Sequence record: OR992643
DNA from: Escherichia phage EP-M-A
Length of the DNA stretch: 24,264 nucleotides
Direction: 5' to 3' (one strand)
This document shows, in pieces, positions 5,529 through 24,264 of the stretch. Position numbers and translations under genes: made by a program. The notes under the pieces are model-generated. The model made no database searches and was not told where the DNA came from. It saw nothing but the letters and a program-made list of their open reading frames with translations. The stretch's first letter is position 1. The number at the start of each line of letters is the position of its first letter.

Positions 5529-5535
5529 CTATCCC

Positions 5536-8076: not shown

Positions 8077-8092
8077 CTAAGGGTCGAAAATA

Positions 8093-10331: not shown

Positions 10332-10337
10332 TACGGC

Positions 10338-10394: not shown

Positions 10395-10480
10395 AAATTT
10401 ACTGGTTTTATGAGGAAGACTGCCGAATCTGTCCGCGCTGCGGTATTGAGCATACGAAACGTGAGGGGTGTGTATTATGA
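10391..10480 (+). CDS. candidate micro-ORF, 29 aa, Cys-rich zinc-ribbon-like peptide (MKIYWFYEEDCRICPRCGIEHTKREGCVL)
   Basis: C-x2-C-x2-C pattern plus a further Cys; ATGA overlaps on both sides (previous micro-ORF and HNH gene). Speculative. Confidence 0.3.
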   Translation: MKIYWFYEEDCRICPRCGIEHTKREGCVL

Positions 10481-10974: not shown

Positions 10975-11251
10975 AGAGGGCCGCGTACAGAAATACGCAA
11001 AAGAGCAATTCGAGGCCATTGGCGGCCTCGTTCGTAAACTTTCGTACGAGGGGCGCTCCGGCGCCCCTGACCTGCTGGTAATTCTCCCCGGCGGCATCGT
11101 CTGGTTCGTCGAGGTTAAGAAAGACGAAAACACGAAGCCTGACCCGCACCAGTTACGTGAGCATGAGCGGATGCGTAAACGCGGTGCAAATGTTTTTGTC
11201 GTTGGTTCGTTTAAACAGGTTGACGACCTAATAGCGAACTATTATAGTTAG
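10964..11251 (+). CDS. VRR-NUC domain nuclease (PD-(D/E)XK fold), 95 aa
   Basis: Core GAPDLLVILPGGIVWFVEVKKD (D...E-V-K) is typical of VRR-NUC; start overlaps the HNH stop. Confidence 0.7.
   Translation: MATKEGRVQKYAKEQFEAIGGLVRKLSYEGRSGAPDLLVILPGGIVWFVEVKKDENTKPDPHQLREHERMRKRGANVFVVGSFKQVDDLIANYYS
11220..11248 (+). promoter_or_regulatory. sigma70-like promoter (-35 TTGACG, 17 nt spacer, -10 TATAGT) with palindrome AATAG-cgaa-CTATT, embedded in the last codons of the VRR-NUC gene
   Basis: TTGACG 11220-11225, TATAGT 11243-11248; same architecture as the promoters at 4998 and 7311; followed by the leader motif ACACCAACAAT shared with the 22870 region. Confidence 0.6.
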
Positions 11252-11281
11252 CCATACACCAACAATATAAGGAATTGAGAA

Positions 11282-11473
11282 ATGAAACACGAATATGACC
11301 GCAAGCCAGCACGTGACATCGTACCTGGCGACATGATTTTCAACGTTAAGACCCGCCAGCCTGTTGCCGTTGATACTGTGTTCGTCGAGTCAAACGGTAA
11401 ACTGGTTATCGAAGATGTAACCGGTAACGTTACGGCGTTCGGGCGTAAAGAGCTAGTTTTGGTGGCAAAATGA
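11282..11473 (+). CDS. hypothetical protein, 63 aa
   Basis: AAGGA Shine-Dalgarno upstream; ATGA overlap with the downstream methyltransferase gene. Confidence 0.6.
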   Translation: MKHEYDRKPARDIVPGDMIFNVKTRQPVAVDTVFVESNGKLVIEDVTGNVTAFGRKELVLVAK

Positions 11474-12399
11474 ACTATTACAACGAGTGGGATAAAGGCG
11501 CAACCGCGTGGCTGCGCGAGTTGATAAAACAGGGCCACATACCTTTTGGAGTTGTAGATGAAAGAAGCATTACTGAAGTTAGACCAGAAGACCTTGACGG
11601 GTTCACCCAGTGTCATTTTTTCGCTGGTATCGGCGGCTGGTCTCTCGCGCTCAGACTTGCGGGAGTTTCGGAAGATACGCCTCTCTGGACGGGAAGCCCG
11701 CCTTGCCAACCGTTTAGCGCGGCAGGAAAACAACTCGGACAGTTCGACCCGAGACACCTCGCTCCAGTCTTCCTTGACCTCATCAGCGAGTGCCGTCCTC
11801 CAGTCATCTTTGGGGAACAAGTTGCGCCAGCAATTGCAAAATCGTGGATGTGCGATTTACAAACTCACCTGGAAGGAGAAGACTACGCCGTCGGGTTTGC
11901 CGTACTCCCAGCTTGTAGCGTCGGCGCACCGCACAAACGCGACAGGCTGTTCTTCGGCGCGCACAGACTGGCCCACACCGGCGGTATCACTGATAACAAA
12001 CGACGTGAACATGCGCAGCACAGACGGCAGGACGAAACCGAACAAACTGGGATGGGCCGCTGCGATGGCGGCATGGGTGACGCCGACCGCGAACGATTAC
12101 AGAGGGAGCGGAGAGACAGTTATTCGCAAGGACGGGAAGGACAGGACATTCAGCAGGCTGGACTACTCAACGGAGCAGGGACTGAAAATATCGCGGCCAA
12201 TCCGCATCACGGCTTCTGGTCAGATACTGACTGGCTCGGATGCCGGGATGGAAAATTCAGGCCAGTTGAACCCGGCACATTCCCGCTGGCTAATGGGGTA
12301 CCCGCCAGAGTGGGACGATTGCGCGGTTATGGCAATGCCATCGTCCCGCAAGTAGCCGCTGAATTTATAAAGGCATTCATGGGGGCGGTAAATGAGTAA
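11470..12399 (+). CDS. DNA (cytosine-5)-methyltransferase; the long ORF in this frame carries motifs I, IV, VI, VIII and X, but the TRD and motif IX appear to lie in the +1 frame (ORF 11558..12355)
   Basis: This frame: HFFAGIGG (I), SPPCQPFSAAGKQ (IV), FGEQV (VI), GAPHKRDRLFFGA (VIII), GYGNAIVPQVAAEFIKA (X). The +1 frame: RPIRITASG and LNPAHSRWLMGYPPEW (motif IX-like). Confidence 0.75.
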   Translation: MNYYNEWDKGATAWLRELIKQGHIPFGVVDERSITEVRPEDLDGFTQCHFFAGIGGWSLALRLAGVSEDTPLWTGSPPCQPFSAAGKQLGQFDPRHLAPVFLDLISECRPPVIFGEQVAPAIAKSWMCDLQTHLEGEDYAVGFAVLPACSVGAPHKRDRLFFGAHRLAHTGGITDNKRREHAQHRRQDETEQTGMGRCDGGMGDADRERLQRERRDSYSQGREGQDIQQAGLLNGAGTENIAANPHHGFWSDTDWLGCRDGKFRPVEPGTFPLANGVPARVGRLRGYGNAIVPQVAAEFIKAFMGAVNE

Positions 12400-13816
12400 G
12401 TTTCAAAGGCGCGAGTACCAGAAGCTCATGACTTCGTTCATGCTGCAACACCCGCGCTGTAATATCTGGTGCGGAATGGGGGGAGGTAAAACCTCCTCCA
12501 CTATGTGGGTGCTCAACCGCCTGTTCCGCAACGGGCAGCTTACGGAAGAGGACCGCGTGTTAATCCTTGCCCCGTTACGTGTTGCGTCCGGTACGTGGCC
12601 CGCTGAACAAGAGAAATGGCAATTCCCTTGTCTGCGTGTCGTAGATGCAACTGGTTCGGAGAAGCGCCGCATCGCGGCGCTGGAGTCAGATGCTAACGTG
12701 GTGTGCACTAACTACGAAGTTATCGAATGGCTGATTGACTACTACGGCAAAGACGACTGGCCTTTCACGGTTATCGTTGCCGATGAAAGCACGAAGCTAA
12801 AATCTTTCCGCAGCTGTTCGGGTGGGAGCAAGCGAGCGAAGGCGCTCAGCAAAGTGGCATTCGGTAAAGTTAAGCGTTTCATCAACCTGACTGGTACACC
12901 ATCACCTAACGGCCTCAAGGACTTGTGGGGCCAGAACTGGTTTATCGACGCAGGAGAGCGCCTCGGTTCATCGTACACGGCATTCACCGACCGCTGGTTT
13001 AACTCAGTGCAGAAAGGTAAGTCGGCTATGGCGCGTGAATATCACGCCCGCCCGGGTGCGGATACTGAGATTCATCAGAAGATGAAAGACATTAGTCTCA
13101 CGATTGACGCTGCCGAGTGGTTTGGTTGTGAAGCGCCGATTATTGTACCGGTTGAAATCGACCTGCCTAAGAAAGCGCGTCAGGCGTACATCGATATGGA
13201 GGAGAAGTTATTCGCGGAACTGGAGAGCGGAGAAGTTGAAGCCGCTAACGCGGCGGCGAAGACGTCGAAGTGCCTCCAGATTGCATCCGGCGCCGTGTAT
13301 GTGTCGGGGCCAGACGGCGAAGCAACCAAAGACTGGGAGAAAGTGCACGACACGAAACTGGATGCGCTGGGGTCGATTGTTGAGGAGTTACAGGGTGCAC
13401 CGCTGCTTGTGGCTTATCAGTTCAAGCACGAACTGGAACGCATCCTGAAACGTTTCCCGCAGGCACAGGCGTTTGCAAAAGGCGCTAAGGGTAATAAGCA
13501 GATGGAAGCGTGGAACCGTGGCGAAATCGAAATCCTATGCGTACATCCTGCGTCAGCCGGGCATGGTTTGAATTTACAGGACGGCGGTCACCATCTGGCG
13601 TTTATTTCGCAGGGCTGGAACCTTGAGCACTATTTGCAGGTCGTTGAGCGCATCGGCCCGGTACGCCAGAAACAGGCGGGCCACGAGCGCCCGGTGTTCC
13701 TCTACCATATCGTAGCTAAAGACACGCTGGATGAGGTTGTTGCTGCGCGTACAGACGAGAAGAAATCTGTACAGGAAGAGTTGCTTAACTACATGAAGAG
13801 ACGAGGTAAGAAATGA
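12392..13816 (+). CDS. SNF2/Rad54-family DNA-dependent ATPase (helicase-like), 474 aa
   Basis: Motif I GMGGGKT; motif II VIVADESTKLK; motif III LTGTPSPNGLKDLW; C-terminal helicase motifs HPASAGHGLNLQDGGHHLAF; overlaps the methyltransferase stop. Confidence 0.85.
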   Translation: MSKFQRREYQKLMTSFMLQHPRCNIWCGMGGGKTSSTMWVLNRLFRNGQLTEEDRVLILAPLRVASGTWPAEQEKWQFPCLRVVDATGSEKRRIAALESDANVVCTNYEVIEWLIDYYGKDDWPFTVIVADESTKLKSFRSCSGGSKRAKALSKVAFGKVKRFINLTGTPSPNGLKDLWGQNWFIDAGERLGSSYTAFTDRWFNSVQKGKSAMAREYHARPGADTEIHQKMKDISLTIDAAEWFGCEAPIIVPVEIDLPKKARQAYIDMEEKLFAELESGEVEAANAAAKTSKCLQIASGAVYVSGPDGEATKDWEKVHDTKLDALGSIVEELQGAPLLVAYQFKHELERILKRFPQAQAFAKGAKGNKQMEAWNRGEIEILCVHPASAGHGLNLQDGGHHLAFISQGWNLEHYLQVVERIGPVRQKQAGHERPVFLYHIVAKDTLDEVVAARTDEKKSVQEELLNYMKRRGKK

Positions 13817-14016
13817 GTAATGAGTTCGATATTGACGCTTGCAACGAATTGATAAAAGACGCTCTTAACGCCCGCGAGCAACTTCTTGCTATGCAGTTAA
13901 AGCGAGAAATAAAACGTATCAAGGAACTCGAGGAGGAGGTTCTACGACTACGCCAGCAAAGAGACGCCGCTAATGCGCAACTGGCGTTTGTACTTGAGAA
14001 GTTATCAGAAGAGTAA
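13813..14016 (+). CDS. hypothetical coiled-coil protein, 67 aa
   Basis: ATGA overlap with the SNF2 gene; heptad-like charged sequence; followed by a bidirectional terminator. Confidence 0.55.
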   Translation: MSNEFDIDACNELIKDALNAREQLLAMQLKREIKRIKELEEEVLRLRQQRDAANAQLAFVLEKLSEE

Positions 14017-14044: not shown

Positions 14045-15757
14045 CTATGGAAGCATTATCCCACCGTTTGAGGTCCCGTAAGTGCCCTGACTATTATTGG
14101 TTGAATATGAGTTCCACGCCTGCATTATCCCACCATTTACTGCGTAAAAACCCCATCCGCCATTACTGTAGGCGTTGGACCTATCTGCGTCTGCGGTACT
14201 AAGCCCATTACCTTCAACCACGCCCCCGTTTAGGGCATAGAAGCCGTGGCCTATATTGTTGTTAGATACACACGCGTGCGCCCACATACTCCCATTGCTA
14301 AGCGCGTAAAACCCAGCTACCTGATTTCCGAGGGCGTGCGACCGTTCGCAGTTTATAAACCCCCCAACTTCGGCACAGAAACCGAAACCAAGATTTTCAC
14401 CGTTTGTGTGCGCACAGTCCTGTGCGGTGCATCCGTAAGCATTAATCGTCGCAGCATATGCATGGTATCCGCAGTCCCCTGCCTGAACGGCGGTAGTCCC
14501 CTGACAGTTGATAGTGCCGCCGTACAACGCCTGGAATCCGTAATATATTCTTTCCGTACGAATGGCGGTTCCTGTTGATACCTTAGAACCTGACCCTATA
14601 ACACGAATAGCGGCTCCGTAACTTTGATTAGCCCATACACCCTTAGATGACCATCCTCCTACACCGAAAATATGGAAGCCGTTTATAACCGCGGCCCCAA
14701 ACCCATCTTCAAAAATAAAACCACACCCGTTGTCAGTAGTGTCTACTTGTAATTGACAGTCCAGAGGGTTTGACTCATTACCTATAATTTGCAAGGCGTG
14801 CCAGTCTTTTACCCTGGAACGAATGTTTTTAACCTGGTACACCCCATTATCGACCTGAATGCGAAACCACGCGTTATTAGCTGCACGTTTATAACTGAAG
14901 AAGTCAAGGGCCGCCTGGATAGTAGGGAACATTTCAGGAACCGACACAAGATACACAGCATTATCAACCGTGCGCGACGCAGGGAAGTTAACCCCGTTAA
15001 ACGTTATCACACCCGGGCCGTCGGATTTGGCTAACTGTGATATCGTCGATGCGGTAGTAGTCTTATATAAGCCGTGAGGGAAATAGTACACACCGGAGGC
15101 AAACGCGGCATGGAGTGCCGCAGTATCGTCGGTTACGCCGTCGCCTATTGCACCAAAATCTTTTACGGTTGGTGTGTCATTATTTTTTGAGTGCTGAGTG
15201 CGGATTACGGTGTTGTTAAAGTCGCCCTGGACTTTTATGTTGCTATCATCAACCAGGAGGCCACTGTTTGCAGATGCCAGTGATGTCTTATACGCTTCAA
15301 AATCGGAATTAAGTTCGGCCAGGTCTGACTCCACATTAGTCAGGTCACTGCGTAATGTAGGGTCCATAGTTAGCTTCCACGCACCAGCGGCGATGCCCCC
15401 GGTGGTAGCAGGAGTAGACGCAGCGGGGACCACTTTCGGCAAAGCGCCCTCCCAATTATACCACGCACCATCTCCGCCAGAACCTAAAGGCCATAACACC
15501 GCCTTATTACGGTCAGTCACGCTAAGAGTACCTCCAGTGTAAAAATCGAACGCCGCCGGTTCAAATCCTACATCTCTCAAAATGGCTGGCATTGTTTTCT
15601 GCACTTGCCCAGTAACAGCGTTGGTTGCGTGATCAATATCAGTACCAGTTGATACGCCGCCTGATTTGCCTGTGATAACCTCAGCCTCGAAAAGCTGGTG
15701 CTTCTTCGCAATCTGTAAATCCGCCAGGCTTAAAACGTCACCGCATCCGCTTGACAT
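14045..15757 (-). CDS. tailspike / tail fibre protein with pectate-lyase-type beta-helix domain and C-terminal Gly-rich repeats (candidate depolymerase), 570 aa
   Basis: KDFGAIGDGVTDDTAALHAAF is the signature of right-handed beta-helix glycanases; C-terminal GFYA(L/V)NGG repeated three times; AGAGGA Shine-Dalgarno; last gene of the tail operon. Confidence 0.75.
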   Translation of the reverse strand: MSSGCGDVLSLADLQIAKKHQLFEAEVITGKSGGVSTGTDIDHATNAVTGQVQKTMPAILRDVGFEPAAFDFYTGGTLSVTDRNKAVLWPLGSGGDGAWYNWEGALPKVVPAASTPATTGGIAAGAWKLTMDPTLRSDLTNVESDLAELNSDFEAYKTSLASANSGLLVDDSNIKVQGDFNNTVIRTQHSKNNDTPTVKDFGAIGDGVTDDTAALHAAFASGVYYFPHGLYKTTTASTISQLAKSDGPGVITFNGVNFPASRTVDNAVYLVSVPEMFPTIQAALDFFSYKRAANNAWFRIQVDNGVYQVKNIRSRVKDWHALQIIGNESNPLDCQLQVDTTDNGCGFIFEDGFGAAVINGFHIFGVGGWSSKGVWANQSYGAAIRVIGSGSKVSTGTAIRTERIYYGFQALYGGTINCQGTTAVQAGDCGYHAYAATINAYGCTAQDCAHTNGENLGFGFCAEVGGFINCERSHALGNQVAGFYALSNGSMWAHACVSNNNIGHGFYALNGGVVEGNGLSTADADRSNAYSNGGWGFYAVNGGIMQAWNSYSTNNSQGTYGTSNGGIMLP

Positions 15758-15769
15758 ATAGAGTCCTCT

Positions 15770-18325
15770 TTAATTAAAACCATTGCTGAATCCGTCGGAG
15801 AAACCGCGACCTAAAGGTGCGACGCCGTCGTATTTGTAGAATCCGTCGTCATAGTTGTAACCCGTAATCTTGACCGTGCGGTCGTCGCCCGGGTCGATTG
15901 AAGAAACAACTATCTTCTGGGCATTATGCCTTGCTTCGTTGCCGAATGAAAACTCAGTTTTTAGCGCACTATTCCCCGTGTAGATTGCCTCCTCAGGTGC
16001 GGAGAGCATAATCACTTCTCGGTCGTGGCTTCCTTTGATAACAGAGATACTCTGCACCGAGCCATCGCGCTTCTTAAGAATGATGGAGTGGTCATCGCCA
16101 GGAGTAAACGTAACAGGCTGGGATAGTGTAAGTGTAAGCCCATTAACGGCAACAACATAGCCATCCTGCGGCGCGATACGCGAGCCTTTAACCACGCTGA
16201 TTACGCCGCCGGGAGTAGCGAGAGCGCCTTCTTCGGTGGCTTCGAACTCTACGACAACTTTACTTAACGCGTTGCGCTGATAGCGACGCCACGCCAGCCA
16301 GTACGCTTGCTGATAGTTGCGCACGCCCTTAGATTCGTACTCCTCGGTGTTTGCTCCGAGTTCTTCCGGGATATAAATCGTTTCCTGTACGTTAGTATCC
16401 GGGTCGATGTACGAGAACGACAGACTATCGTAGGTTGTCGAATCGTTGAACGTGCGGGACCATTTCTCTGTACCGGTCGTCTTACTGCGGTGGGTGAACA
16501 CCATTTCAGGCCCAGCAACAGGACGGTCGAATCTCAGCATAATATCCGCGCCTTTACGGTACGCGGTACAGAACACGGCTTCAGCTATAGTCTGAACGAT
16601 GTCCTGCATCGTGGTGTCGTAGTCGTCGAACGTGTAACAGAACTGACCCGCTAATTCACTTCCGAAATAGGACTCAATCTCTTCCTGCACAGCAAGTAAC
16701 TTGTCCATGTTTGCCGTTGTCAGTTCCAGATTGCCAACCGCAGGGTCCCGAGCCAGTCTGATTAGTGACTGCACCGCCTGCGTGTTCGGAGTCATTACCG
16801 TATCGAATACACCATTACCGAGGTATTTGTAACACATCTCGGTTGCAATCATGCGCAGTTCCGGGTTGTCGATACTGGCGGCTCGCGGGGTCTGTTTACG
16901 GGCGCAATGTACCGTAGTTCTGTTACCGTAGTGGGGGGTTGTATCCAGAGACTGCCCGTACAGGTTGATGAACGTTATCTCGTCACTTACCGTACCGTCG
17001 AAATCTTTATCAGAGTTGCTAACCCGTCTAGCTCTTACGCGGACCCTGCTTGCCATTGGAAGGTAGCCGTAGGCGCTTGTTCCAGTGTAATCGGTGTTGC
17101 GACCAGTTACTACAACCCGTGTCGTGTAAATATCGCCAATCGGCTGTCTTTGTTCGTTTACCGCTTGAAATTGCAGCTCTATCGTGGCGCTTGCAGTGCT
17201 ATAGCTGCCGTTGTAGCGGTACATACCATTAGCGCCGGCGAAGTTAGCCAGGACACGGTCAACACTTCCTCTGGTGATGTAGTACCAGTCGGTTAGCGAC
17301 TTGTTGTATGTGTCCTGCGGGCGCATAGAGTTCTCTGCGTCGTTCCCCCGAATGGCATACCCTACGGCGGCGTTCCAGTCGGATTCGCGCCCTGTAATAT
17401 CTAGAGTAACCGTGTTTTCTGATACGTCTAAAACCCGGTAATGACCAGTAAGAGACACGTCGTTTGTCGTCCACATAGGGCTGCAAACTACGATGTCACC
17501 TACGGATATGTCTTCACTGAAATCTACCGCCGACGAAGTTTCGGTTAGGGTGCCGGTGTTGCCCGAGACGGATACGAATGCCGTTTCACCGTCAAAAACT
17601 ACGCCTAAATCGTTAGGTGCCTTAAGCACAACACCGTCAACATCATCGTTCATAAAAGTAATGTATAATTTTTGGTTTATAACGTCGCCGATCTGTAACT
17701 GCGGTGTAGTTGTGTTGTTTGGTGAAGTGTATGGGGCGTACACAGCAACAGAGGAGCCGGTAATACCGCTAATCTGGGTATCACCTTCTGTGACACCATC
17801 CGCTTCGATATGCAGATGCCCGCGCCCGGCGTCGTAGTATGAATACTCCAGCAAAGCACCAGTTGAGTTGAACGCCTTATACGTCTGCATCAGGTCATTA
17901 GGGATTGTCTGCACAGTACCGCATATGTCATAAGAGCGCTCGTAAGGTCGCGGCTTGTTGGAGCGGTCGGTAAGGCTGTTGTTCGGTGACGTTGTCTGAT
18001 TGTTGGTTGCTGAATAATTAGCGTTAGCCGCGGTGTTAAGCCCGAACAACTTAGCGATTGGCTTAAGGATAAAGCCGAATACCTTCCCAATAGCGTTACC
18101 TATCCCACCACCAGCGCCCTCAATAATGTGGTACACAGCGTCTTCATCTTTAAGCGCGTCGAAGTCGTCAGTTACGTCGGTATCATCACCAATCTCACCG
18201 AGATAGACGCGCACCGGCACGCCGTCCGGGATACGGTTAACGACAAACTCCATCGGCATCCCGACGTGTTTTGTACGGTCGAAAGCGCCTTCAGCGTTTC
18301 GCGTGTAGTGCAGGATTATCGCCAA
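15770..18325 (-). CDS. tail tip / central fibre protein (lambda J-like), 851 aa
   Basis: Large protein at the J position, downstream of M/L/K-like genes. The open frame begins at a TTG (18325); the first in-frame ATG is at 18259, so the start is uncertain. Confidence 0.65.
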   Translation of the reverse strand: MAIILHYTRNAEGAFDRTKHVGMPMEFVVNRIPDGVPVRVYLGEIGDDTDVTDDFDALKDEDAVYHIIEGAGGGIGNAIGKVFGFILKPIAKLFGLNTAANANYSATNNQTTSPNNSLTDRSNKPRPYERSYDICGTVQTIPNDLMQTYKAFNSTGALLEYSYYDAGRGHLHIEADGVTEGDTQISGITGSSVAVYAPYTSPNNTTTPQLQIGDVINQKLYITFMNDDVDGVVLKAPNDLGVVFDGETAFVSVSGNTGTLTETSSAVDFSEDISVGDIVVCSPMWTTNDVSLTGHYRVLDVSENTVTLDITGRESDWNAAVGYAIRGNDAENSMRPQDTYNKSLTDWYYITRGSVDRVLANFAGANGMYRYNGSYSTASATIELQFQAVNEQRQPIGDIYTTRVVVTGRNTDYTGTSAYGYLPMASRVRVRARRVSNSDKDFDGTVSDEITFINLYGQSLDTTPHYGNRTTVHCARKQTPRAASIDNPELRMIATEMCYKYLGNGVFDTVMTPNTQAVQSLIRLARDPAVGNLELTTANMDKLLAVQEEIESYFGSELAGQFCYTFDDYDTTMQDIVQTIAEAVFCTAYRKGADIMLRFDRPVAGPEMVFTHRSKTTGTEKWSRTFNDSTTYDSLSFSYIDPDTNVQETIYIPEELGANTEEYESKGVRNYQQAYWLAWRRYQRNALSKVVVEFEATEEGALATPGGVISVVKGSRIAPQDGYVVAVNGLTLTLSQPVTFTPGDDHSIILKKRDGSVQSISVIKGSHDREVIMLSAPEEAIYTGNSALKTEFSFGNEARHNAQKIVVSSIDPGDDRTVKITGYNYDDGFYKYDGVAPLGRGFSDGFSNGFN

Positions 18326-18681
18326 AATTCAATCTCCGTGTACGTGTCTCTGAGGTCCGCCAGCCTGTCAAGCCGTACCTGACGGGACGCAAGCTCGCAA
18401 TGACTCACCATACCATTGAAGTAAACTCCTGCGTGCCACACGATGCGACCCCCACGGCGATACCCCATAAGCACCGCACAGAAGTTTTCAGGCTTATCAA
18501 TTTTCGTAAGCCCCTTCGTGTTGCGGTGGCCTTCGTCGAACGCTTCATTAATTGCCGTTGGGCTTGTGACGTCGAACGCTGGCGTCTCTAACCCGGCATC
18601 CGCGCGGACAATGCGCACGTGATGCCAGCAATTACGTTTACGAAAGTCGTACGGTATGCCCGTGTAGTCGTTAATATTCAT
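18316..18681 (-). CDS. tail assembly protein with NlpC/P60-like Cys/His motifs (lambda K-like), 121 aa
   Basis: NCWHHV...HAGVY...SHC is consistent with an NlpC/P60 triad; position between the L-like and J-like genes; ATGA overlap with the upstream gene. Confidence 0.6.
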   Translation of the reverse strand: MNINDYTGIPYDFRKRNCWHHVRIVRADAGLETPAFDVTSPTAINEAFDEGHRNTKGLTKIDKPENFCAVLMGYRRGGRIVWHAGVYFNGMVSHCELASRQVRLDRLADLRDTYTEIEFWR

Positions 18682-19193
18682 GTGGTCAACAGCCCGCGTA
18701 ATAACGGTATCTCTTTAGGTGTCATCAGTATACCAGTGCTTCGTTGGTTCAGCATAGGTGTACCGACATCCGCGGAGAACTCGCCCTTTTCCTGGTTGAT
18801 GGCCTGCAACTCGTACACGACCGGGCCATCAGCGGGATAAGACAGGTCGGTGCTGACGTAACGGCGGAAGACGAATTTCGGCAACTCGGTGTTACTCATC
18901 GGGATTTTATCCATCTCATCGTCCAGTTGGTTGAGAATATCCGGTAAAGTAAACGTCGTCGTCTGGTCCATATCGCTGTTGTTAGAGGCCCCCGACGCTT
19001 CCATCGGGGTGGGTTCGAAGGTTATAGTTTCACCCGTCTCCAGTGTTGCCGTAAGTTCCTGTAGCCCGCGCACAAGATAGTACGTCTTCGATAGTAACGG
19101 GTGGCTGATTTGCAACGTGATGTAGTCCATCTCGCCGTCGGGATTTGAGGCCAGCTTACGGCGATAGGCTGCTTCTACTGATTCCTGACTCAT
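18678..19193 (-). CDS. minor tail protein (lambda L-like position), about 171 aa
   Basis: Gene order; start set at ATG 19193 (ATGA overlap with the upstream gene) rather than 19208. Confidence 0.55.
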   Translation of the reverse strand: MSQESVEAAYRRKLASNPDGEMDYITLQISHPLLSKTYYLVRGLQELTATLETGETITFEPTPMEASGASNNSDMDQTTTFTLPDILNQLDDEMDKIPMSNTELPKFVFRRYVSTDLSYPADGPVVYELQAINQEKGEFSADVGTPMLNQRSTGILMTPKEIPLLRGLLTT

Positions 19194-19690
19194 TGCATCG
19201 GGTCCCAAATTCGTGGAAACGTTGATTGCGCGGTTCCGTAGGCTTTAAGGAAACATCCCAGCCCGTCGCCATAGCAACCATACAAATCTGGTAGATTGTT
19301 AACAAGGCACTGGTTATCTTCATCCTGGAACGGTGATTTCTCGGCGGTTGCCGTGAAGGTAATTGTCCAGTTAATGCCGTCTTCGGTTGACTCCGCGATG
19401 GTGGACGTGATTGTTACCTGGTAATCCTCGATGCCCATGCCGAAGTCGTGCGCCATCCAGAAACTTGACGCACCGCCATCGACTTTCTCAAGGAACGACA
19501 GAAACGCCTTCCGCCCTAGTGCCGATGTAATCAGGGTTACGCTTATCGGGAACACGTCGTAATACGTGTCACGGCCCTGGCGCACACCACCACCTGCTAA
19601 ATCGACACTCCAGACGTTGTTGCGTCTGGTCATTGAGTAGCCTTTCGATACCACCGGCTTAAGGCTACGTGGGAAATATAAGTCGCTCAT
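19190..19690 (-). CDS. minor/distal tail protein (lambda M-like position), 166 aa
   Basis: Immediately downstream of the tape measure gene with a TAATG stop/start overlap. Confidence 0.55.
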   Translation of the reverse strand: MSDLYFPRSLKPVVSKGYSMTRRNNVWSVDLAGGGVRQGRDTYYDVFPISVTLITSALGRKAFLSFLEKVDGGASSFWMAHDFGMGIEDYQVTITSTIAESTEDGINWTITFTATAEKSPFQDEDNQCLVNNLPDLYGCYGDGLGCFLKAYGTAQSTFPRIWDPMQ

Positions 19691-21963
19691 TATTTAAACC
19701 CCGGCGCATTTCTTGTGGCCTTGCGGGCCTTGCTAATCTTACTGTTGCTGTTCTGCAAAGAGGCTGCCACTTGCTCCTCGATGATGATACGCAAACGGCC
19801 TTCATCATCTTGCTCGGTGGATACGTTGCCGATTTGAGAACTCGTGTTGTTTACGATGGTAACATTAGCCGGGCCGGAAGAAGACCCGTTTTGGCCCATA
19901 ATCTCTTTCATTTGCTGCGCGGTGCGCACACGCGATGCACCCGCGGGCATGATAACTTCCGGTTTACCGCGTTCGGCGATGGTGGAAGCCTGCCCTGCTG
20001 ATAGCTGCCCGCCCTGTTCACGCGCGGACCTGATAGCGGAAACCTGCGCCATACCCGCCCCAACGGCAGCGGCAGCGGCTACGGGAGCCAGGAACGGGCC
20101 GACTACAGGGATGGCAGCTGTTGACTTATAAGCCTCAATAGCTGCGGTGTACGTGGCGATAGTGGCCTGTACGATAGCGAATGCCTTATACGCGCCAGAA
20201 GCCTCACCCAACGCCGAACCGATGTTTGAAGCCATGTTACCAAAAGCGGTTGCCGTTGCGTCTGCGCGCTTGGTTGCGTACCGCTCATTGATAGCGTTGA
20301 GTGCCGCCTGATACTGTTCCTCGTTAATCAGACCCTGTTCGCGGTATTTATCTGCGACCGCCAGTTTCTGCTGTTCCTGGATGTCGAGAAGCTCGAGTTC
20401 AGTGGCGTTCTGGCCCATAATCTGAGCCATGAAGTCGTCACCTTTCTGCTGTTTTTCTTGGGCTTCTTTCTGGCGCTTATCCAGTTCATCTTGTCGTTTT
20501 TGCCCTGCTTCTAGGACAATAGCCGTTTTTGCTTGCTCGTATTCTTTCAGTGACAGCGCGCCCTGGCTGTAGAACTCTTTTGCCTTAGCCAGTTTCTGCT
20601 GTTCCTGGGCGTCAATAGCCTTTAACTCGTCGTTGTTCTGACGGGCCAAAGTGTCGAGGTAATCCTGGGCCTGTTTGCGCAATTGCTCTGCTTTCTTGGC
20701 GGCGGCTTTTGCTGCTTTATCGTCGGTTTCCCCCGTTCCACCAGTTCCGCCCTTTTTATTAACAAGGCTGGCTAAGTCAATTTCTTGCTTCTTGCGCTCG
20801 TCATACTGCTTGCGCTGTTCCTCAATTTCTTTCTTACGCTGCTTAGACCTGTTGGTAATGGCCTGTGATTCTGCCTCTGCTCGTTTTATGCTGGCGGCGT
20901 ATGCGGCGTCGGCTTCTGCGGTCAGGTTTTTAAATGTTAGCGCTGCCGTTTTGCTCGGGTCAAACACGTCGGCAAGGGTCTGGCCTAACGCTACGGCATA
21001 ATCGTCAATGCGCTGGAACCACGCGATAACCTCGTGGAATGTCTGCTGAATGTCGGGCAACCACTCACGGATAGCGTCCGGTATACCCCCCAGCGAGTCG
21101 GACATATCCACGGATTTGTCCTCGGTATCGTATGCCAGGTCGTTCAAGGCATCAGAGATAAACTTGAACGATTCATTGAACAGTGTTACCCAATCCTGGA
21201 GCGTGGCTGCTATCTCATTAGACGCGATGGCATCAGTAAGCGCCGTGATAGCATCTTCCGCCCTCGCAGCTTGCCCACCTACGGCGTCGCCGAAACCTGA
21301 TTGCGCCACCGCAAGTACAAGGCCGTCAAAGGAGTCCGCGAGGCTGGATAACTGCCCGTCAAGGGTTTTCGAACGCGTTTCCATCGCTCCGGCGAAATCA
21401 GTGTTACCAATATTCAGAAGGTATTTCTGAATCTCTTCGGAGTTCTTCTTAACCGTGGTGGTAACACCGCGGAACGTGAACGACACTGTATCCGCCTGCT
21501 GTGACGACTTGATACCAAACTCTTTCAGTCGCTCAAACTCAAATGTACTGGCGTCCGCCACAGCCTCAATCATCTGATTAAGGTCTTTGCCCATCGCAGC
21601 GGCGGTGTTGCCGTAGGAGATTAACGCCTCTTTGCTGGGGTTAAGACCAAGAGCTACAAGTTTAGTGAAGCCCTCGACCGCCTGATTGAGGCCATACGGG
21701 GTTTCTTTTGCGAACTGTTGCAGGACGCTGAAAGCCTTAGCCGCGTTCTCAGCACTCCCGGTCATTGTGATTAGGCCGGAGTTCAGCTTATCGAAGTTTC
21801 GCTGGGAGTCCACCAGCGCACTGAACACCTGCTTAGCGGTTTCCAGGCTGACAACGGCGGCAGCCGCAGCGCCTGCGGCTTTAGTAAGCCCGTTCAGTTG
21901 TGATGTGACTTTATCGACGCCGGTTGCGGATACTCGTACTATCAAGCTAGCGATATCAGCCAT
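19690..21963 (-). CDS. tail tape measure protein, about 757 aa
   Basis: Long Ala/Gln/Lys-rich alpha-helical protein with coiled-coil character (QQKLA repeated), between GT and M-like genes; start set at ATG 21963 (AAGGTAG upstream), not the TTG at 21978. Confidence 0.85.
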   Translation of the reverse strand: MADIASLIVRVSATGVDKVTSQLNGLTKAAGAAAAAVVSLETAKQVFSALVDSQRNFDKLNSGLITMTGSAENAAKAFSVLQQFAKETPYGLNQAVEGFTKLVALGLNPSKEALISYGNTAAAMGKDLNQMIEAVADASTFEFERLKEFGIKSSQQADTVSFTFRGVTTTVKKNSEEIQKYLLNIGNTDFAGAMETRSKTLDGQLSSLADSFDGLVLAVAQSGFGDAVGGQAARAEDAITALTDAIASNEIAATLQDWVTLFNESFKFISDALNDLAYDTEDKSVDMSDSLGGIPDAIREWLPDIQQTFHEVIAWFQRIDDYAVALGQTLADVFDPSKTAALTFKNLTAEADAAYAASIKRAEAESQAITNRSKQRKKEIEEQRKQYDERKKQEIDLASLVNKKGGTGGTGETDDKAAKAAAKKAEQLRKQAQDYLDTLARQNNDELKAIDAQEQQKLAKAKEFYSQGALSLKEYEQAKTAIVLEAGQKRQDELDKRQKEAQEKQQKGDDFMAQIMGQNATELELLDIQEQQKLAVADKYREQGLINEEQYQAALNAINERYATKRADATATAFGNMASNIGSALGEASGAYKAFAIVQATIATYTAAIEAYKSTAAIPVVGPFLAPVAAAAAVGAGMAQVSAIRSAREQGGQLSAGQASTIAERGKPEVIMPAGASRVRTAQQMKEIMGQNGSSSGPANVTIVNNTSSQIGNVSTEQDDEGRLRIIIEEQVAASLQNSNSKISKARKATRNAPGFK

Positions 21964-22288
21964 GGTTTCTACCTTCAAAGATTGCTTCTAAGCCCATGAT
22001 AATGTCTATCTCGAACAGGCTAAGCTGTTTTTTCGTAACGTCGAGATAGGCTTTCAGGTCTTGCCACGTAACGGATTCTCTTGCAAACAATACTACAGCG
22101 TCCTCGCGCACGTGTCGCGTAAACTTAATGTCGCAATACGTCTCAAAGGTGGATATAAAAAGGGGCGGACATTCCGGCCCACCCCGTCGCGCTGCACGTT
22201 TTTTCTTATCGATTACACCCATCGCGATAAGCGCCTGCTCGTGTCCGTCAGCTATAGAATCAAACTCTCTGATTTTATGCTTATCCAC
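21956..22288 (-). CDS. T segment of a putative G/GT tail assembly chaperone, reached by a programmed -1 frameshift
   Basis: This frame is open from 22345 (inside the G gene) to 21956, is the -1 frame relative to G, has no ATG of its own (GTG in the track), and ends just before the tape measure gene. Confidence 0.45.
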   Translation of the reverse strand: MDKHKIREFDSIADGHEQALIAMGVIDKKKRAARRGGPECPPLFISTFETYCDIKFTRHVREDAVVLFARESVTWQDLKAYLDVTKKQLSLFEIDIIMGLEAIFEGRNHG

Positions 22289-22320
22289 AAACTCGTAGGT
22301 GGCGAACCTGTACAGCGCGT

Positions 22321-22737
22321 CTACTTTTCCTGTAATGCTTTGCGCTCAGCGTTATGGAACGCGGCTACCTGTGTGCCTAATGCCTTGAACTGGTCGAGCA
22401 ACTTGTTAAACGCTTCCTTAGAGAAAGGCTCGTCAAAGCTCCAGCCGTTTACGACTTCTGCCGCAAGTTGCCGGTTGAGGTCTTCCGCCAGTTCGTTAAC
22501 CGCCAGGTTATATTCTGTATAGTCGCCGGAGGCTTTAGCGGTTTTTTCCAGTTCTTCGAAACGCGCCAGTCCGCGACGGTACGCGATAATGAAAGCACGC
22601 CCCGCTTTAACGGCAGCATCCGCATCCGGATTTACAACATTAAGCCATTCCCCTGAGTCTTCACCATTTGGCAGGAGAATCGGCATCTTCTTGCCTACCA
22701 GTGCTTTCTCTTCGAAATAAAAATCAGAAAGTTTCAT
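22321..22737 (-). CDS. tail assembly chaperone (lambda G-like), 138 aa
   Basis: Size and position immediately upstream of GT and tape measure; AAAGGA Shine-Dalgarno; putative slippery site G-GAA-AAG at the last two sense codons. Confidence 0.6.
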   Translation of the reverse strand: MKLSDFYFEEKALVGKKMPILLPNGEDSGEWLNVVNPDADAAVKAGRAFIIAYRRGLARFEELEKTAKASGDYTEYNLAVNELAEDLNRQLAAEVVNGWSFDEPFSKEAFNKLLDQFKALGTQVAAFHNAERKALQEK

Positions 22738-22857
22738 TCTTTAATCCTTTGGTTAAGAGGTTACAGGTTAAGGGAAATGCGCCAGACGGGAACCACCCGC
22801 TTTTCGTGTGCGACACTAGGCGCAAAATTATTCTATCACATTACTTGCGTACCCCAA

Positions 22858-22875
22858 TATAATAGGGTACTATTC
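22858..22875. promoter_or_regulatory. divergent control region: consensus -10 TATAAT (22858-22863) overlapping palindrome AATAG-ggta-CTATTC (22861-22875)
   Basis: Palindrome copy between the leftward tail operon and the rightward Imm gene; leader motif ACACCAACAAT as after the 11220 promoter. Orientation and -35 are ambiguous. Confidence 0.45.
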
Positions 22876-22903
22876 ACTTACACCAACAATGAAGGGGTTT
22901 AAA

Positions 22904-23095
22904 ATGTCCAGTTTACCAGTTTCCTTAATTCTGTTTGCACTGCTCGCTTATTTCGCGCCTTTCCTGGTTGCGTACTTCCGTAACCATAAAGCGAAGTTGG
23001 CGATATTCATGGCTAATCTGTTTCTTGGCTGGGTTCTGCTGCCGTGGGTATTTATTTTAATCTGGGCTTGCAACTCGAACGTGAAAGAGAAGTAG
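22904..23095 (+). CDS. small membrane protein resembling superinfection immunity (Imm-type) proteins, 63 aa
   Basis: Two hydrophobic segments and the pattern YFAPFLVAYFRNH...NLFLGWVLLPWVFILIWA; GAAGGGG Shine-Dalgarno 6 nt upstream of ATG 22904 (the track ORF starts at 22889). Family assignment is from memory. Confidence 0.55.
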   Translation: MSSLPVSLILFALLAYFAPFLVAYFRNHKAKLAIFMANLFLGWVLLPWVFILIWACNSNVKEK

Positions 23096-23133: not shown

Positions 23134-24264
23134 ATGGCCCAGAAGAAAATAACCGACGAACAGTTACAGGAAGAATTGAACGCCGGGATGAAGAATATAG
23201 ATATCGCCCGTAAATACGGCATCTCAGACCGCGTTATTCGTATCCGTAAAGCGAAGCTGGCGAAAAAAGGCGTAGGCCACGGGCGTGACGTTAGCCATCT
23301 AGTACCAGACGGCTACAAGATTAAAGGAACGTCGTCACTGGTGGACGAGTTCGGCAACACTAAGTTGCAATGGGTTAAGACAGACACCGATGCCGAACGT
23401 CAGGTCGAGTTGATGAAAGCCGTAATCGAAGGAATGAAATCAGAGATTACGCCAGTCGCCCCTGTTAAAGCAGCACGCGCCAAACGCGACGACAAGCTAC
23501 TCAATCTTTACACGGTATCTGATTTTCATCTCGGTATGCTGGCCTGGGCCGACGAGAGCGGCGACGACTGGGACATGAAGATTGCGGAAGACCTGTTCTC
23601 CCGCTGGTTCGACGCGGCGTTTCAGAAAGCACCGGATGCAGGAACTGGAGTTATTAACCTGCTAGGCGACTTCGCGCACTTCGATAGCCTGGATGCCGTT
23701 ACGCCAACTAGTGGTCATGTCCTTGACGCTGACACGCGCTATCAGAAACTGGTCCGCTACATGATTCGTATGGTACGCCGTGTTGTAGATATGGCACTTG
23801 TTAAGCATAGAAATGTTCGTTTGCTTATAGTGCAAGGGAACCACGACGAAAGCGGAATGATTTGGCTGGCTGAGATGTTCAGTACGCTGTACGACAATGA
23901 GCCTCGTGTGTTCGTCGATACGTCGCCGGATGTGTACAAGATGGTACAACACGGCAAAACGACTCTGTTCTTTACACATGGCCATAAATGTCGGTTTGAG
24001 GTGGTCGAACCAATTATGATAGCTAAGTTCCGCAAAGCGTTTGGCGAAAGCGAGTACAGCTACGCCCACGTAGGCCACCTGCACCATCAGAAAATCGTAG
24101 AAAGCCGTAACATGATTGTCGAGCAGCACCGAACCCTGGCGGCGAAAGATGCATATGCTTCCCGCGGAGGGTGGATGTCGGGCCGTAGTGCAAATGTAAT
24201 TACTTATAGCGCCGAATATGGCGAGGTTGCACGTTTAACTATTTCACCGGAGATGCTGGGATGA
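23134..24264 (+). CDS. calcineurin-like metallophosphoesterase (SbcD/Mre11-type motifs) with an N-terminal HTH-like domain, 376 aa
   Basis: Motifs SDFHLG, LLGDFAHFD, VQGNHDE, THGH, HVGHLHH; N-terminal NIDIARKYGISDRVIRIRKAKL is HTH-like; GAGGAAG Shine-Dalgarno before ATG 23134; TGA stop at the window end. Confidence 0.7.
   Translation: MAQKKITDEQLQEELNAGMKNIDIARKYGISDRVIRIRKAKLAKKGVGHGRDVSHLVPDGYKIKGTSSLVDEFGNTKLQWVKTDTDAERQVELMKAVIEGMKSEITPVAPVKAARAKRDDKLLNLYTVSDFHLGMLAWADESGDDWDMKIAEDLFSRWFDAAFQKAPDAGTGVINLLGDFAHFDSLDAVTPTSGHVLDADTRYQKLVRYMIRMVRRVVDMALVKHRNVRLLIVQGNHDESGMIWLAEMFSTLYDNEPRVFVDTSPDVYKMVQHGKTTLFFTHGHKCRFEVVEPIMIAKFRKAFGESEYSYAHVGHLHHQKIVESRNMIVEQHRTLAAKDAYASRGGWMSGRSANVITYSAEYGEVARLTISPEMLG

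What the first reader, a model, noticed from the sequence alone, without database searches (positions are those of the whole stretch)
22738..22903. Tail operon begins at the chaperone gene with no major tail or head genes upstream; divergent switch region
Reading leftward from 22737 the order is G, GT, tape measure, M-, L-, K-, J-like, tailspike, but the expected major tail protein and head/terminase genes are not upstream. Instead a 150 bp divergent region with an operator palindrome and a TATAAT separates the chaperone from rightward Imm-like and phosphoesterase genes. Either the structural module is split in this genome or the window spans a rearrangement or mosaic junction.
Basis: inference. 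Interest (0 to 1): 0.45.

Follow-up and report, generated by a model that had tools for sequence, protein, structure and literature searches.

The report
Conserved split tail operon, RNA leader
The tail genes of this E. coli phage only look cut off from the other virion genes because a small backward-facing block of accessory genes sits between them, as in the whole phage subfamily; the gap that restarts the tail operon holds back-to-back promoters and a conserved folded RNA leader from a known but unexplained family.

Summary
The window comes from a Kagunavirus (subfamily Guernseyvirinae) and is 98.8% identical to Escherichia phage EP-B-K_E2. The "missing" major tail and head genes are mostly a window-edge effect. 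In EP-B-K_E2 the major tail gene ends 449 bp past the window's right end, on the tail-operon strand.

All 12 relatives inspected have major tail gene <- [1-4 opposite-strand accessory genes] -> <- chaperone. They span Kagunavirus, Jerseyvirus, Cornellvirus, Serratia phage eta and Pantoea AH01. Two distant outgroups lack the inverted block. The phage eta paper already calls this block a moron that divides the operon.

The GTACCC/GGGTAC palindrome is at chance level and not conserved. Three things in the gap are conserved:
- Overlapping divergent sigma-70-type promoters.
- One copy of a genome-wide promoter palindrome, AATAG-N4-CTATT.
- On the tail-operon strand, a three-stem RNA with a pseudoknot that starts at the predicted transcript start. 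It matches Rfam int-alpA (33.1 bits, just under the threshold of 35.8) and is backed by covariation.

The RNA's function is unknown. I propose it controls translation of the chaperone gene.

The parts
14045..15757 (-). Tailspike, the last gene of the leftward tail operon. The N-terminal anchor is conserved and the receptor-binding part is swapped relative to K1-type relatives.
   Evidence: PHROG tail spike families, plus Pfam Tail_spike_N and a pectate-lyase-like domain. K1-type relatives align only from about window 15580 onward.
15770..19690 (-). Four distal tail genes: 851 aa tail tip protein, 121 aa and 176 aa (DUF1833) minor tail proteins, and a 166 aa virion protein.
   Evidence: phrog_469, phrog_329, phrog_396 and phrog_384. 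Same order as in K1G.
19690..21963 (-). Tape measure protein gene. The ATG at 21963 overlaps the end of the T frame by 8 nt, as in K1G.
   Evidence: phrog_1538, E 2e-192. K1G coordinates.
21956..22737 (-). Tail assembly chaperone G (22321-22737) and its -1 frameshift product GT (to 21956).
   Evidence: phrog_15027 covers G at profile positions 1-138 and T at 152-259; PF08748 and PF23812 also hit. The -1 frame is open from the slip site. Relatives annotate a joined CDS.
22324..22330 (-). Candidate slip site GGAAAAG (G GAA AAG), directly before the G stop codon TAG.
   Evidence: Read directly from the sequence. It is not a canonical X XXY YYZ heptamer.
22162..22185 (-). G+C-rich hairpin followed by a T-run, inside the rarely translated T segment. 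It is a possible internal attenuator ahead of the tape measure gene.
   Evidence: Terminator scan. A hairpin plus T-run recurs in K1G, L005, L032, L033 and eta, but not in Jerseyvirus or phiEc4.
22745..22749 (-). Shine-Dalgarno AAGGA of the chaperone gene, 7 nt before the ATG.
   Evidence: Positions 2-4 (AGG) are invariant in 17 phage leaders and the two flanking A's are at least 90% conserved.
22750..22769 (-). Three AACC repeats: site 1 at 22769-22765, site 2 at 22762-22759, site 3 (AACCA) at 22754-22750, which abuts the Shine-Dalgarno. Sites 1 and 3 are complementary to the P3 loop UGGUU.
   Evidence: Where the loop changes U to C, site 1 changes A to G in 3 of 3 cases and site 3 in 2 of 3.
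22779..22823 (-). Three-stem RNA element. P1 is 22823-22819 with 22783-22779. P2 is 22816-22814 with 22808-22806. P3 is 22800-22796 with 22790-22786, with loop 22795-22791. Junction sequences are UAG, GAAAA and CU.
   Evidence: Rfam RF02996 int-alpA: 33.1 bits, E 2.5e-5, full model matched. 97% of cells are paired against 33-45% for slid controls, with 7 compensated pairs. RNAalifold predicts the same stems. The phage-only covariance model R1 finds bacterial copies.
22830..22838 (-). Leftward extended -10 promoter element TGaTAGAAT. The -35 is TTGGGG at 22857-22852 with a 16-nt spacer. The predicted start is about 22823, the first base of P1.
   Evidence: G of the TG, and T1, A2 and T6 of the hexamer, are invariant in 17 leaders from three genera and their relatives. 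The distance to P1 is fixed at 6 nt in the 33 phage loci that carry the RNA leader. The consensus scan missed it because of the weak -35.
22845..22873 (+). Rightward promoter TTGCGT-17-TACTAT for Imm and the phosphoesterase. Its -35 lies inside the spacer of the leftward promoter.
   Evidence: TTGC and T1, A2, T6 of the -10 are invariant across genera. The same TTGCAC-17-TACTAT occurs in paralogous regions near 325 and 1536.
22835..22863 (+). Alternative rightward promoter ATCACA-17-TATAAT.
   Evidence: Best consensus match in the region, 10 of 12. It is conserved only within K1G-like Kagunavirus.
22861..22874 (.). One copy of the genome-wide palindrome AATAG-N4-CTATT, an operator-like promoter element.
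   Evidence: 6 exact copies in the window against 0.035 expected, all intergenic. Three of them fill the spacer of TTGACA/TTGACG-17-TATAGT promoters. Reported as a 7-copy PHIRE consensus in Kagunavirus fBC-Eco01 (PMC9825357).
22849..22870 (.). GTACCC-N10-GGGTAC palindrome. A chance feature.
22904..23095 (+). Superinfection-immunity-like membrane protein, the first gene of the inverted cassette. The ribosome binding site AAGGGG is at 22891-22896.
   Evidence: PF14373 at 48 bits and phrog_1039. Same length as K1G gp23.
23134..24264 (+). SbcD-like metallophosphoesterase with a weak N-terminal HTH signal. Its stop codon is the last base of the window.
   Evidence: phrog_704, E 1e-166, and Metallophos. 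GerE at 17 bits, below its cut-off.

Best explanation
This is the normal genome layout of Guernseyvirinae phages. Their virion genes form one long same-strand array. Between the major tail gene and the tail assembly chaperone gene, that array is interrupted by a short opposite-strand cassette of accessory genes. Here the cassette holds Imm, an SbcD-like phosphoesterase and, just beyond the window, a 76-aa ORF.

The head-to-major-tail unit and the cassette converge on a shared bidirectional terminator. The distal tail genes (chaperone to tailspike) therefore form a separate transcription unit that has to start in the 166-bp gap.

The gap is a compact bidirectional control region with these parts:
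- A rightward sigma-70-type promoter and a leftward extended -10 promoter. They overlap so closely (-35 elements interdigitated, predicted starts about 57 bp apart) that both cannot be occupied at once.
- One copy of a promoter-associated palindrome that recurs across the genome.
- A tail-operon leader that starts, at its first base, with a three-stem RNA of the int-alpA type.

In this RNA the P3 loop can pair either with a site just after the element or with a site abutting the Shine-Dalgarno. I infer that this leader tunes translation of the chaperone gene, and so the dosage or timing of the distal tail genes.

Shown: gene identities, conserved synteny, the terminator in the relative, the conserved promoter hexamers, and the RNA structure with its covariation. 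Inferred: the actual transcript starts, promoter competition, and the RNA's function.
For: Identity:
- 98.8% to EP-B-K_E2 and about 91% to K1G-type Kagunavirus.
- K1G has no annotated phage RNA polymerase gene, so host-type promoters are relevant.

Synteny:
- K1G, EP-B-K_E2, Shelanagig, FSL SP-031, G AB-2017, AG11, phiEc4, VIPECOMC04, Shemara, TU03, eta and AH01 all show major tail <- [inverted cassette] -> <- chaperone.
- Tlacuache and phiH2, whose chaperones are 27-31% identical, have the major tail gene directly followed by the chaperone.
- The cassette content varies. The first gene is Imm, phrog_14165 or phrog_34162. PNK with a kinase, a 76-aa ORF, or Ant may follow.
- Published as a moron dividing the operon (PMC3918226).

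Terminator: AAGGCCCCGAAAGGGGCCTT lies between the cassette and the major tail gene in the relative, with a T-run on the tail strand.

Promoters: invariant TG, T1, A2, T6 and TTGC positions and fixed spacing in the 33 loci that carry the leader. Overlapping divergent promoters are also annotated in eta.

Palindrome family.

RNA:
- Rfam hits on the chaperone strand at the same place in the window, K1G, phiEc4 (36.6 bits, above the threshold), AH01 and Shelanagig.
- Covariation.
- G-U outnumbers A-C 55 to 19 in P1 of 119 instances, which indicates the sense strand.
- Only one copy in the whole K1G genome.
- The loop is complementary both to a site just after P1 and to the SD-like site in 104 of 121 instances, against 52.6 +/- 4.3 with swapped tails.
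Against: - No transcript-start or RNA-seq coverage data were available. The one Kagunavirus transcriptome paper is too coarse to help.
- The leftward promoter has a weak -35. A second leftward -10 (TATATT, 22861-22856) and a second rightward promoter (ATCACA-17-TATAAT) are also possible.
- The window's Rfam score is below the gathering threshold.
- The single-sequence folding energy is unremarkable, z = -0.54.
- The eta-like clade has the inverted gene but no RNA element, so the element is not required for a split operon.
- The far side of the cassette was seen only in relatives, not in the window.
Confidence: 0.85

Rival explanations
1. The window spans a recent rearrangement or mosaic junction that separated the distal tail genes from the rest of the structural module in this particular genome.
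For: Cassette content does differ between relatives. K1G annotators note similarity of cassette genes to T1 and Era103. So this position is a site of gene flux.
Against: The junction itself (chaperone, gap, first cassette gene) is conserved at the DNA level in 483 records. It is present in three genera plus eta and AH01. The window is colinear with EP-B-K_E2 up to its last base.
Confidence: 0.03
2. The conserved block next to the chaperone gene works as double-stranded DNA, for example as a binding site for a late-gene activator or repressor, and not as an RNA.
For: The region lies just downstream of the promoters. A repeated palindromic DNA element sits nearby. The junction nucleotides are invariant, as protein-binding sites often are.
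Against: Compensatory changes keep three helices paired: 97% against 33-45% for slid controls, with 7 pairs changed on both sides. G-U wobble pairs occur on the chaperone strand only. An independent Rfam covariance model matches on that strand. The loop and tail sequences covary.
Confidence: 0.08
3. The RNA element is not a translational regulator. It could be a 5' stabiliser, a promoter-proximal terminator or attenuator, a put-like antitermination signal for the 8.7-kb operon, or a separate small RNA.
For: - It sits at the very 5' end of the predicted transcript.
- The Rfam consensus has a U-rich tail after a G+C-rich P1, and Rfam types it as an sRNA gene.
- A hairpin plus T-run inside the T segment could need read-through.
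- In bacteria the element follows the integrase stop codon by 8-15 nt, so a role in the int 3' UTR is possible there.
Against: - Phage copies lack a U-run; Jerseyvirus has GACGCAACUAUC.
- The loop covaries with sites next to or within the ribosome binding site, both in phages and in 104 of 121 bacterial and viral copies.
- The distance to the start codon is similar in phages (45 nt) and in bacteria (36-44 nt).
- No gene lies upstream on the same strand in the phage.
Confidence: 0.3
4. The distal tail genes are mainly transcribed by read-through from the head and major tail operon, running antisense across the cassette. The gap promoters would then serve only the cassette.
For: All virion genes are on one strand. 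Intrinsic terminators are often leaky.
Against: A strong bidirectional hairpin with a T-run follows the major tail gene in the relative. Read-through would collide with convergent cassette transcription over 1.6-2.6 kb. A leftward extended -10 at a fixed distance from the leader is conserved across genera.
Confidence: 0.1

Closest known systems
Guernseyvirinae genome architecture (Kagunavirus K1G, Jerseyvirus SETP3/Jersey, Cornellvirus SP-031) and the 'moron gene 60' of Serratia phage eta
   Same: Same gene order, and the same inverted cassette between the major tail gene and the chaperone. There is a bidirectional terminator on one side and divergent promoters on the other.
   Different: Nothing essential differs. 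This genome carries the short cassette version (Imm, phosphoesterase, 76-aa ORF) seen in EP-B-K_E2, not K1G's four genes.
Rfam RF02996, int-alpA RNA motif (candidate structured RNA from comparative genomics; function unknown)
   Same: P1 encloses two hairpins, with the same junction nucleotides (CUAG, CGAAAAG, CUG). The full-length model matches on the sense strand. The loop-to-tail pairing and the distance to the next start codon are similar.
   Different: - The score is 2.7 bits under the gathering threshold.
- P1 is shorter (5-6 bp against 8) and the P3 loop is 5 nt against 7-9.
- There is no integrase upstream and no alpA downstream. Instead the element follows a promoter and precedes a tail assembly chaperone.
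- The loop pairs next to the Shine-Dalgarno and not with it.
Lambda G/GT tail assembly chaperone with programmed -1 frameshift
   Same: Two overlapping frames lie directly before the tape measure gene. The -1 relation holds and chaperone HMMs hit.
   Different: The gene is preceded by its own promoter and leader, not by the major tail gene V. The slip site G GAA AAG is non-canonical.
[quoted passage not shown]
   Same: An accessory block with its own predicted promoter and terminator. Its content varies, and it is absent at this position in distant relatives.
   Different: Here the block is on the opposite strand. It is fixed in a whole subfamily and it forces the downstream tail genes to carry their own promoter.
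Translational switches in which a loop alternates between a decoy and the ribosome binding site, and the cis-acting leader RNAs of phage operons (HK022 put, lambda sib). Analogies recalled from memory, not tested here.
   Same: A structured element in a promoter-proximal or gene-flanking position that acts in cis on the neighbouring genes.
   Different: No sequence or structural similarity was detected. Rfam returned only int-alpA.

Membership tests
Kagunavirus / Guernseyvirinae genome layout | High nucleotide similarity to reference members. | tested here: met
   98.8% over 97% of a 10.3-kb query to EP-B-K_E2, and 90.6% over 79% to K1G.
Kagunavirus / Guernseyvirinae genome layout | Chaperone G/GT, tape measure, four distal tail genes and tailspike on one strand, diverging from an opposite-strand cassette that starts with a small membrane protein and an SbcD-like phosphoesterase. 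| tested here: met
Kagunavirus / Guernseyvirinae genome layout | Major tail protein and head genes on the far side of the cassette, on the same strand as the tail operon. | not testable with these tools
   The window ends at the phosphoesterase stop codon. The feature is met in the 98.8%-identical EP-B-K_E2 and in 11 other relatives.
Rfam RF02996 int-alpA RNA | Covariance-model score at or above the curated gathering score (35.8 bits). | tested here: not met
   Window 33.1 bits, E 2.5e-5. K1G 31.8 bits. The same site in phiEc4 passes at 36.6 bits.
Rfam RF02996 int-alpA RNA | P1 enclosing P2 and P3, with conserved junctions CUAG / CGAAAAG / CUG. | tested here: met
   Alignment to the model. 17 phage leaders. 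The phage-only model R1 recovers 33 of 48 bacterial and viral loci.
Rfam RF02996 int-alpA RNA | Base pairing maintained by compensatory change. | tested here: met
   7-8 pairs changed on both sides. Covariation score 0.29-0.30 against 0.09-0.10, with 0 of 500 shuffles reaching it. In alignment A6, 96.9% of cells are paired against 37-49% for slid controls.
Rfam RF02996 int-alpA RNA | Genomic context between an integrase gene and alpA in integrated elements. | tested here: not met
   In bacterial loci a Pfam integrase hit is found in 29 of 30 upstream ORFs, and AlpA or HTH_17 in 18 of 48 second downstream ORFs. The phage copy lies between a promoter and the chaperone gene.
Lambda-type G/GT frameshifting tail assembly chaperone | Two overlapping ORFs in a 0/-1 relation directly upstream of the tape measure gene, with chaperone family hits. 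| tested here: met
Lambda-type G/GT frameshifting tail assembly chaperone | Canonical slippery heptamer X XXY YYZ at the end of G. | tested here: inconclusive
   G GAA AAG followed by TAG at 22330-22321. Only the A AAG half is a classic slip site.
Moron (autonomous insert within a late operon) | Own promoter and own terminator. | tested here: inconclusive
   The promoter is predicted and conserved. The terminator is seen in the relative only. No transcript data were available.
Moron (autonomous insert within a late operon) | Absent at the same position in related phages, with variable content. | tested here: met
   Absent in Tlacuache and phiH2. Content varies.
Repressor/operator genetic switch of the lambda type | Divergent promoters flanked by regulator genes, with repeated operators in the same gap. 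| tested here: not met
   The flanking genes are Imm and a tail chaperone. There is one palindrome copy in the gap, and the other copies are dispersed at other promoters.

The most novel reading that the evidence does not exclude
The int-alpA-type RNA at the 5' end of the chaperone-to-tailspike mRNA is a cis-acting switch. Its P3 loop toggles between a decoy site and a site at the ribosome binding site, setting the timing or dose of distal tail proteins. The phage copies lack any integrase or alpA, so they would show that this orphan RNA family is a portable 5'-UTR regulator of mobile-element genes. They would also provide a simple lytic E. coli phage in which to find its trigger.
Probability: 0.3. 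Interest if true: 0.55.

Novelty: already known. Interest (0 to 1): 0.3.

Why it matters
As posed, the finding does not matter much. The split of the structural module is the standard, published layout of this phage subfamily, and the 'missing' genes lie just outside the window.

What may be worth a follow-up is what the gap actually contains:
- Overlapping divergent promoters.
- A genome-wide promoter palindrome that suggests an unidentified phage regulator.
- A covariation-supported RNA of an orphan Rfam family, in a context with no integrase and no alpA.

That context argues the RNA acts on the downstream gene. The E. coli phages that carry it would make its function directly testable.

Tried and rejected
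- blastn of the leader against complete E. coli genomes found nothing, so bacterial copies were found by pattern search instead.
- The paper that introduced the 224 motifs does not mention int-alpA in its main text, and its supplements are not held. The only other paper that names it merely lists it. What Rfam's curators say about a pseudoknot or about phage members could therefore not be checked.
- The Kagunavirus time-course transcriptome gives only coarse gene classes and no 5' ends.
- The GTACCC/GGGTAC palindrome was rejected as an operator because it is at chance level and not conserved.
- Single-sequence folding energy gives no signal, z = -0.54. The case for the RNA rests on covariation.
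- A coding explanation for the conserved block was rejected because the indels are 1-2 nt.
- The PDB sequence search for the phosphoesterase gave no hit. The N-terminal HTH signal is below the Pfam cut-offs.
- Promoters that directly abut the motif in other viral contigs gave mixed support. L151 fits, but in L153 the predicted start falls inside P1.

Full report
**What the window is.** The right-hand 10 kb is 98.8% identical to Escherichia phage EP-B-K_E2 and about 91% identical to K1G-type phages of the genus Kagunavirus, subfamily Guernseyvirinae. Positions 1-14000 carry plus-strand replication genes (compared with K1G). Positions 14045-22737 carry minus-strand tail genes. The last 1.4 kb carries two plus-strand genes.

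**Checking the observation.**
- chaperone G (22321-22737), matching phrog_15027 and PF08748;
- the T part in the -1 frame, matching the second half of phrog_15027 and PF23812;
- the tape measure gene (phrog_1538);
- four distal tail genes and a tailspike.

The -1 frame is open from GGAAAAG (22330-22324) to 21956. Rightward lie an Imm-like protein (PF14373) and an SbcD-like metallophosphoesterase (phrog_704). With the Imm start at 22904, as in K1G, the gap is 22738-22903, which is 166 bp. TATAAT is at 22858-22863, and GTACCC-N10-GGGTAC is at 22849-22870. tblastn with the major tail, capsid, portal and terminase proteins of the nearest relative finds nothing in the window. So the description is accurate, with two caveats. 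The palindrome is what chance gives, since 31-34% of 166-bp stretches hold one. And the window stops exactly at the phosphoesterase stop codon.

**Where the missing genes are.** EP-B-K_E2 is colinear with the window to its last base. Beyond that point it continues with a 76-aa plus-strand ORF. A 390-aa major tail gene follows on the minus strand, ending 449 bp past the window end. After it come the tail terminator, neck, adaptor, capsid, scaffold, portal and terminase genes, all on the minus strand.

The same layout is annotated or readable in twelve relatives: K1G, EP-B-K_E2, G AB-2017, phiEc4 and VIPECOMC04 (Kagunavirus); Shelanagig, AG11 and TU03 (Jerseyvirus); FSL SP-031 and Shemara (Cornellvirus); and the more distant Serratia phage eta and Pantoea phage AH01.

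A 581-bp probe across the junction matches 483 phage records, 342 of them over at least 80% of its length. Two outgroups whose chaperones are 27-31% identical, Serratia Tlacuache and Pseudomonas phiH2, have the major tail gene directly followed by the chaperone. The inverted block is therefore a shared derived feature of this lineage.

The content of the block varies:
- The first gene is Imm, phrog_14165 or phrog_34162.
- The phosphoesterase is present in most genomes but absent in Cornellvirus and eta.
- PNK with a nucleotide kinase, a 76-aa ORF or an anti-repressor may follow.

The phage eta paper already describes the inverted gene as a moron with its own promoter and terminator that divides the operon (PMC3918226).

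**Why the tail operon must restart here.** In EP-B-K_E2 a perfect 8-bp hairpin, AAGGCCCCGAAAGGGGCCTT, sits between the end of the cassette and the end of the major tail gene, with a T-run on the tail strand. Shelanagig and eta carry annotated bidirectional terminators at the same place. The head-to-major-tail unit and the cassette therefore converge on one terminator. The genes from chaperone to tailspike need their own promoter in the gap.

**Anatomy of the gap.** An alignment of nine gaps from three genera is 77% identical on average. It is most conserved on the chaperone side and has 1-2 nt indels, so it is not coding. In the 33 phage loci that carry the RNA leader, the geometry is fixed.
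- On the chaperone strand there is a -35 (TTGGGG, TTGAGC or similar), a 16-nt spacer, TG-n-TAGAAT (window 22838-22830), exactly 6 nt, and then GCGCC.
- On the other strand there is TTGCnn (22845-22850), 17 nt, and TACTAT, TATTAT or TATATT (22868-22873).

The invariant positions are the G of the TG, T1, A2 and T6 of both -10 hexamers, and TTGC. Each -35 lies inside the other promoter's spacer, and the predicted starts (about 22823 and about 22880) are about 57 bp apart, so the two promoters probably exclude each other. That last point is an inference.

The consensus scan preferred ATCACA-17-TATAAT instead (10 of 12). This motif is conserved only in K1G-like phages, and I cannot say which rightward promoter is used. 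K1G has no annotated phage RNA polymerase gene, so host-type promoters are the relevant kind.

**A real palindrome, but a different one.** AATAG-N4-CTATT (22861-22874) occurs six times exactly in the window, against 0.035 expected. K1G has six copies, and the head region of EP-B-K_E2 holds further copies. In the window all six copies are intergenic.
- At 5008, 7321 and 11230 it fills the spacer of strong TTGACA/TTGACG-17-TATAGT promoters.
- The copies at 325 and 1536 are paralogues of the divergent region studied here, including TTGCAC-17-TACTAT on the opposite strand.

The same consensus was reported as a 7-copy 'phage promoter' in Kagunavirus fBC-Eco01 (PMC9825357). A conserved palindrome inside promoter spacers suggests a dimeric regulator. 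That is an inference, and no candidate protein was identified.

**The RNA leader.** The most conserved block (22826-22762, minus strand) matches Rfam RF02996 (int-alpA RNA) over the full model, at 33.1 bits against a gathering score of 35.8, with E 2.5e-5. The same site scores 36.6 bits in phiEc4, 31.8 in K1G, 28.2 in AH01 and 26.7 in Shelanagig, always on the chaperone strand. It is the only copy in the window and in the whole K1G genome.

The structural evidence from 17 distinct phage leaders is as follows:
- P1, P2 and P3 are paired in 97% of cells, against 33-45% when partners are slid.
- Seven pairs changed on both sides.
- The covariation score is 0.29, against 0.09 in shuffles, and none of 500 shuffles reaches it.
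- RNAalifold predicts the same stems.
- The P3 loop UGGUU is complementary to AACC(U/A) 10 nt after P1 and to AACCA abutting the Shine-Dalgarno.
- Where the loop has C instead of U, site 1 has G in 3 of 3 cases and site 3 in 2 of 3.

P1 begins at the predicted transcript start.

**The same element elsewhere.** A pattern built from the junction nucleotides finds 91 bacterial loci, mainly Betaproteobacteria but also Aeromonas, Klebsiella and Pluralibacter. It also finds 45 viral contigs, many of about 16 kb and satellite-like.
- In the bacterial loci a P4-type integrase gene ends 8-15 nt before P1; 29 of 30 upstream ORFs have a Pfam integrase hit.
- A variable ORF starts 36-44 nt after the element.
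- An AlpA or HTH_17 gene often follows.
- In some viral contigs the downstream gene is an HNH or endonuclease VII type gene, or a major-tail-like gene.

In 119 distinct instances P1 has 851 Watson-Crick pairs, 55 G-U and 19 A-C, which favours the sense strand. The P3 loop has a complement of at least 4 nt both 6-13 nt after P1 and at the SD-like site 18-26 nt after P1 in 104 of 121 instances. With swapped tails the figure is 52.6 +/- 4.3. A covariance model built only from phage leaders recovers 33 of 48 of these loci at E <= 0.01, and finds nothing in eta, L033, Tlacuache or phiH2. These loci were chosen by a pattern taken from the motif, so that test is not fully independent. The Rfam model is independent.

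**Mechanism.** The architecture is settled. The function of the leader is not. My preferred reading, at about 0.3-0.35, is a cis-acting translational switch. In it the P3 loop pairs either with the decoy site (pseudoknot, ribosome binding site free) or next to the Shine-Dalgarno (site blocked), and the three-way junction is where an unknown signal acts.

The phage copies help because they have no gene upstream on the same strand. That argues against a purely int-3'-UTR role.

The rivals are a 5' stabiliser, an attenuator, a put-like antitermination signal or a small RNA. The antitermination idea is kept alive by a hairpin with a T-run inside the rarely translated T segment (22185-22162). This feature recurs in several clades but not in all. 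The eta-like clade has the inverted gene but no RNA element, so the element is not needed merely to restart the operon.

**Comparison, novelty and score.** The split operon is the known Guernseyvirinae layout and is published as a moron insertion. The chaperone is a lambda-type G/GT pair with a non-canonical slip site. The RNA resembles Rfam int-alpA in every structural feature I could test. It misses the curated score by 2.7 bits and lacks the family's usual gene context.

I rate the finding as posed 'already known' and of low interest. The RNA leader and the promoter palindrome raise the overall interest to about 0.3, because they make an orphan RNA family testable in a lytic E. coli phage.

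Noticed in passing
window 325-338, 1536-1549, 5008-5021, 7321-7334, 11230-11243, 22861-22874 (near-copy at 4964-4977): A 14-bp palindrome, AATAG-N4-CTATT, recurs in intergenic promoter regions (6 exact copies against 0.035 expected). In three strong TTGACA/TTGACG-17-TATAGT promoters it occupies the spacer, which suggests an unidentified dimeric phage regulator.
   Followed up: partly
window 300-400 and 1500-1600: Two further divergent promoter regions are paralogous to the chaperone/Imm gap. They share TTGCAC-17-TACTAT on one strand and GTGTGCAAG after the palindrome, but have no RNA element.
   Followed up: partly
window 22162-22185 (minus strand): A 9-bp G+C-rich hairpin followed by TTTTT lies inside the T segment, which only frameshifted ribosomes translate. 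It recurs in K1G, L005, L032, L033 and eta but not in Jerseyvirus or phiEc4. It could attenuate transcription into the tape measure gene.
   Followed up: partly
window 14045-15580: The receptor-binding part of the tailspike (pectate-lyase-like) matches only EP-B-K_E2. K1-type relatives, which carry an endosialidase, align only with the N-terminal anchor. This is a host-range module swap.
   Followed up: no
window 23134-23340: The phosphoesterase has an N-terminal segment of about 60 aa with weak helix-turn-helix signals (GerE 17 bits, HTH_24 13.7 bits, both below cut-off). One relative annotates it as 'HTH-type regulator/nuclease SbcD'.
   Followed up: partly
L002 10098-10328 (just beyond the window end in EP-B-K_E2): The 76-aa last ORF of the cassette matches only the C-terminal part of longer ATPase-like PHROG families. 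It may be a remnant of a longer ATPase-like gene.
   Followed up: no
loci L138-L182 (viral contigs) and L047-L137 (bacterial genomes): int-alpA-type elements sit directly after P4-type integrase genes at the ends of satellite-like elements of about 16 kb. In some phage contigs they sit directly before HNH or endonuclease VII genes. The family seems to travel with mobile genes.
   Followed up: partly
window 11470-12399 and 11558-12355: There are two overlapping plus-strand ORFs in different reading frames in the DNA methyltransferase region, as annotated in K1G (ORF30/ORF31).
   Followed up: no
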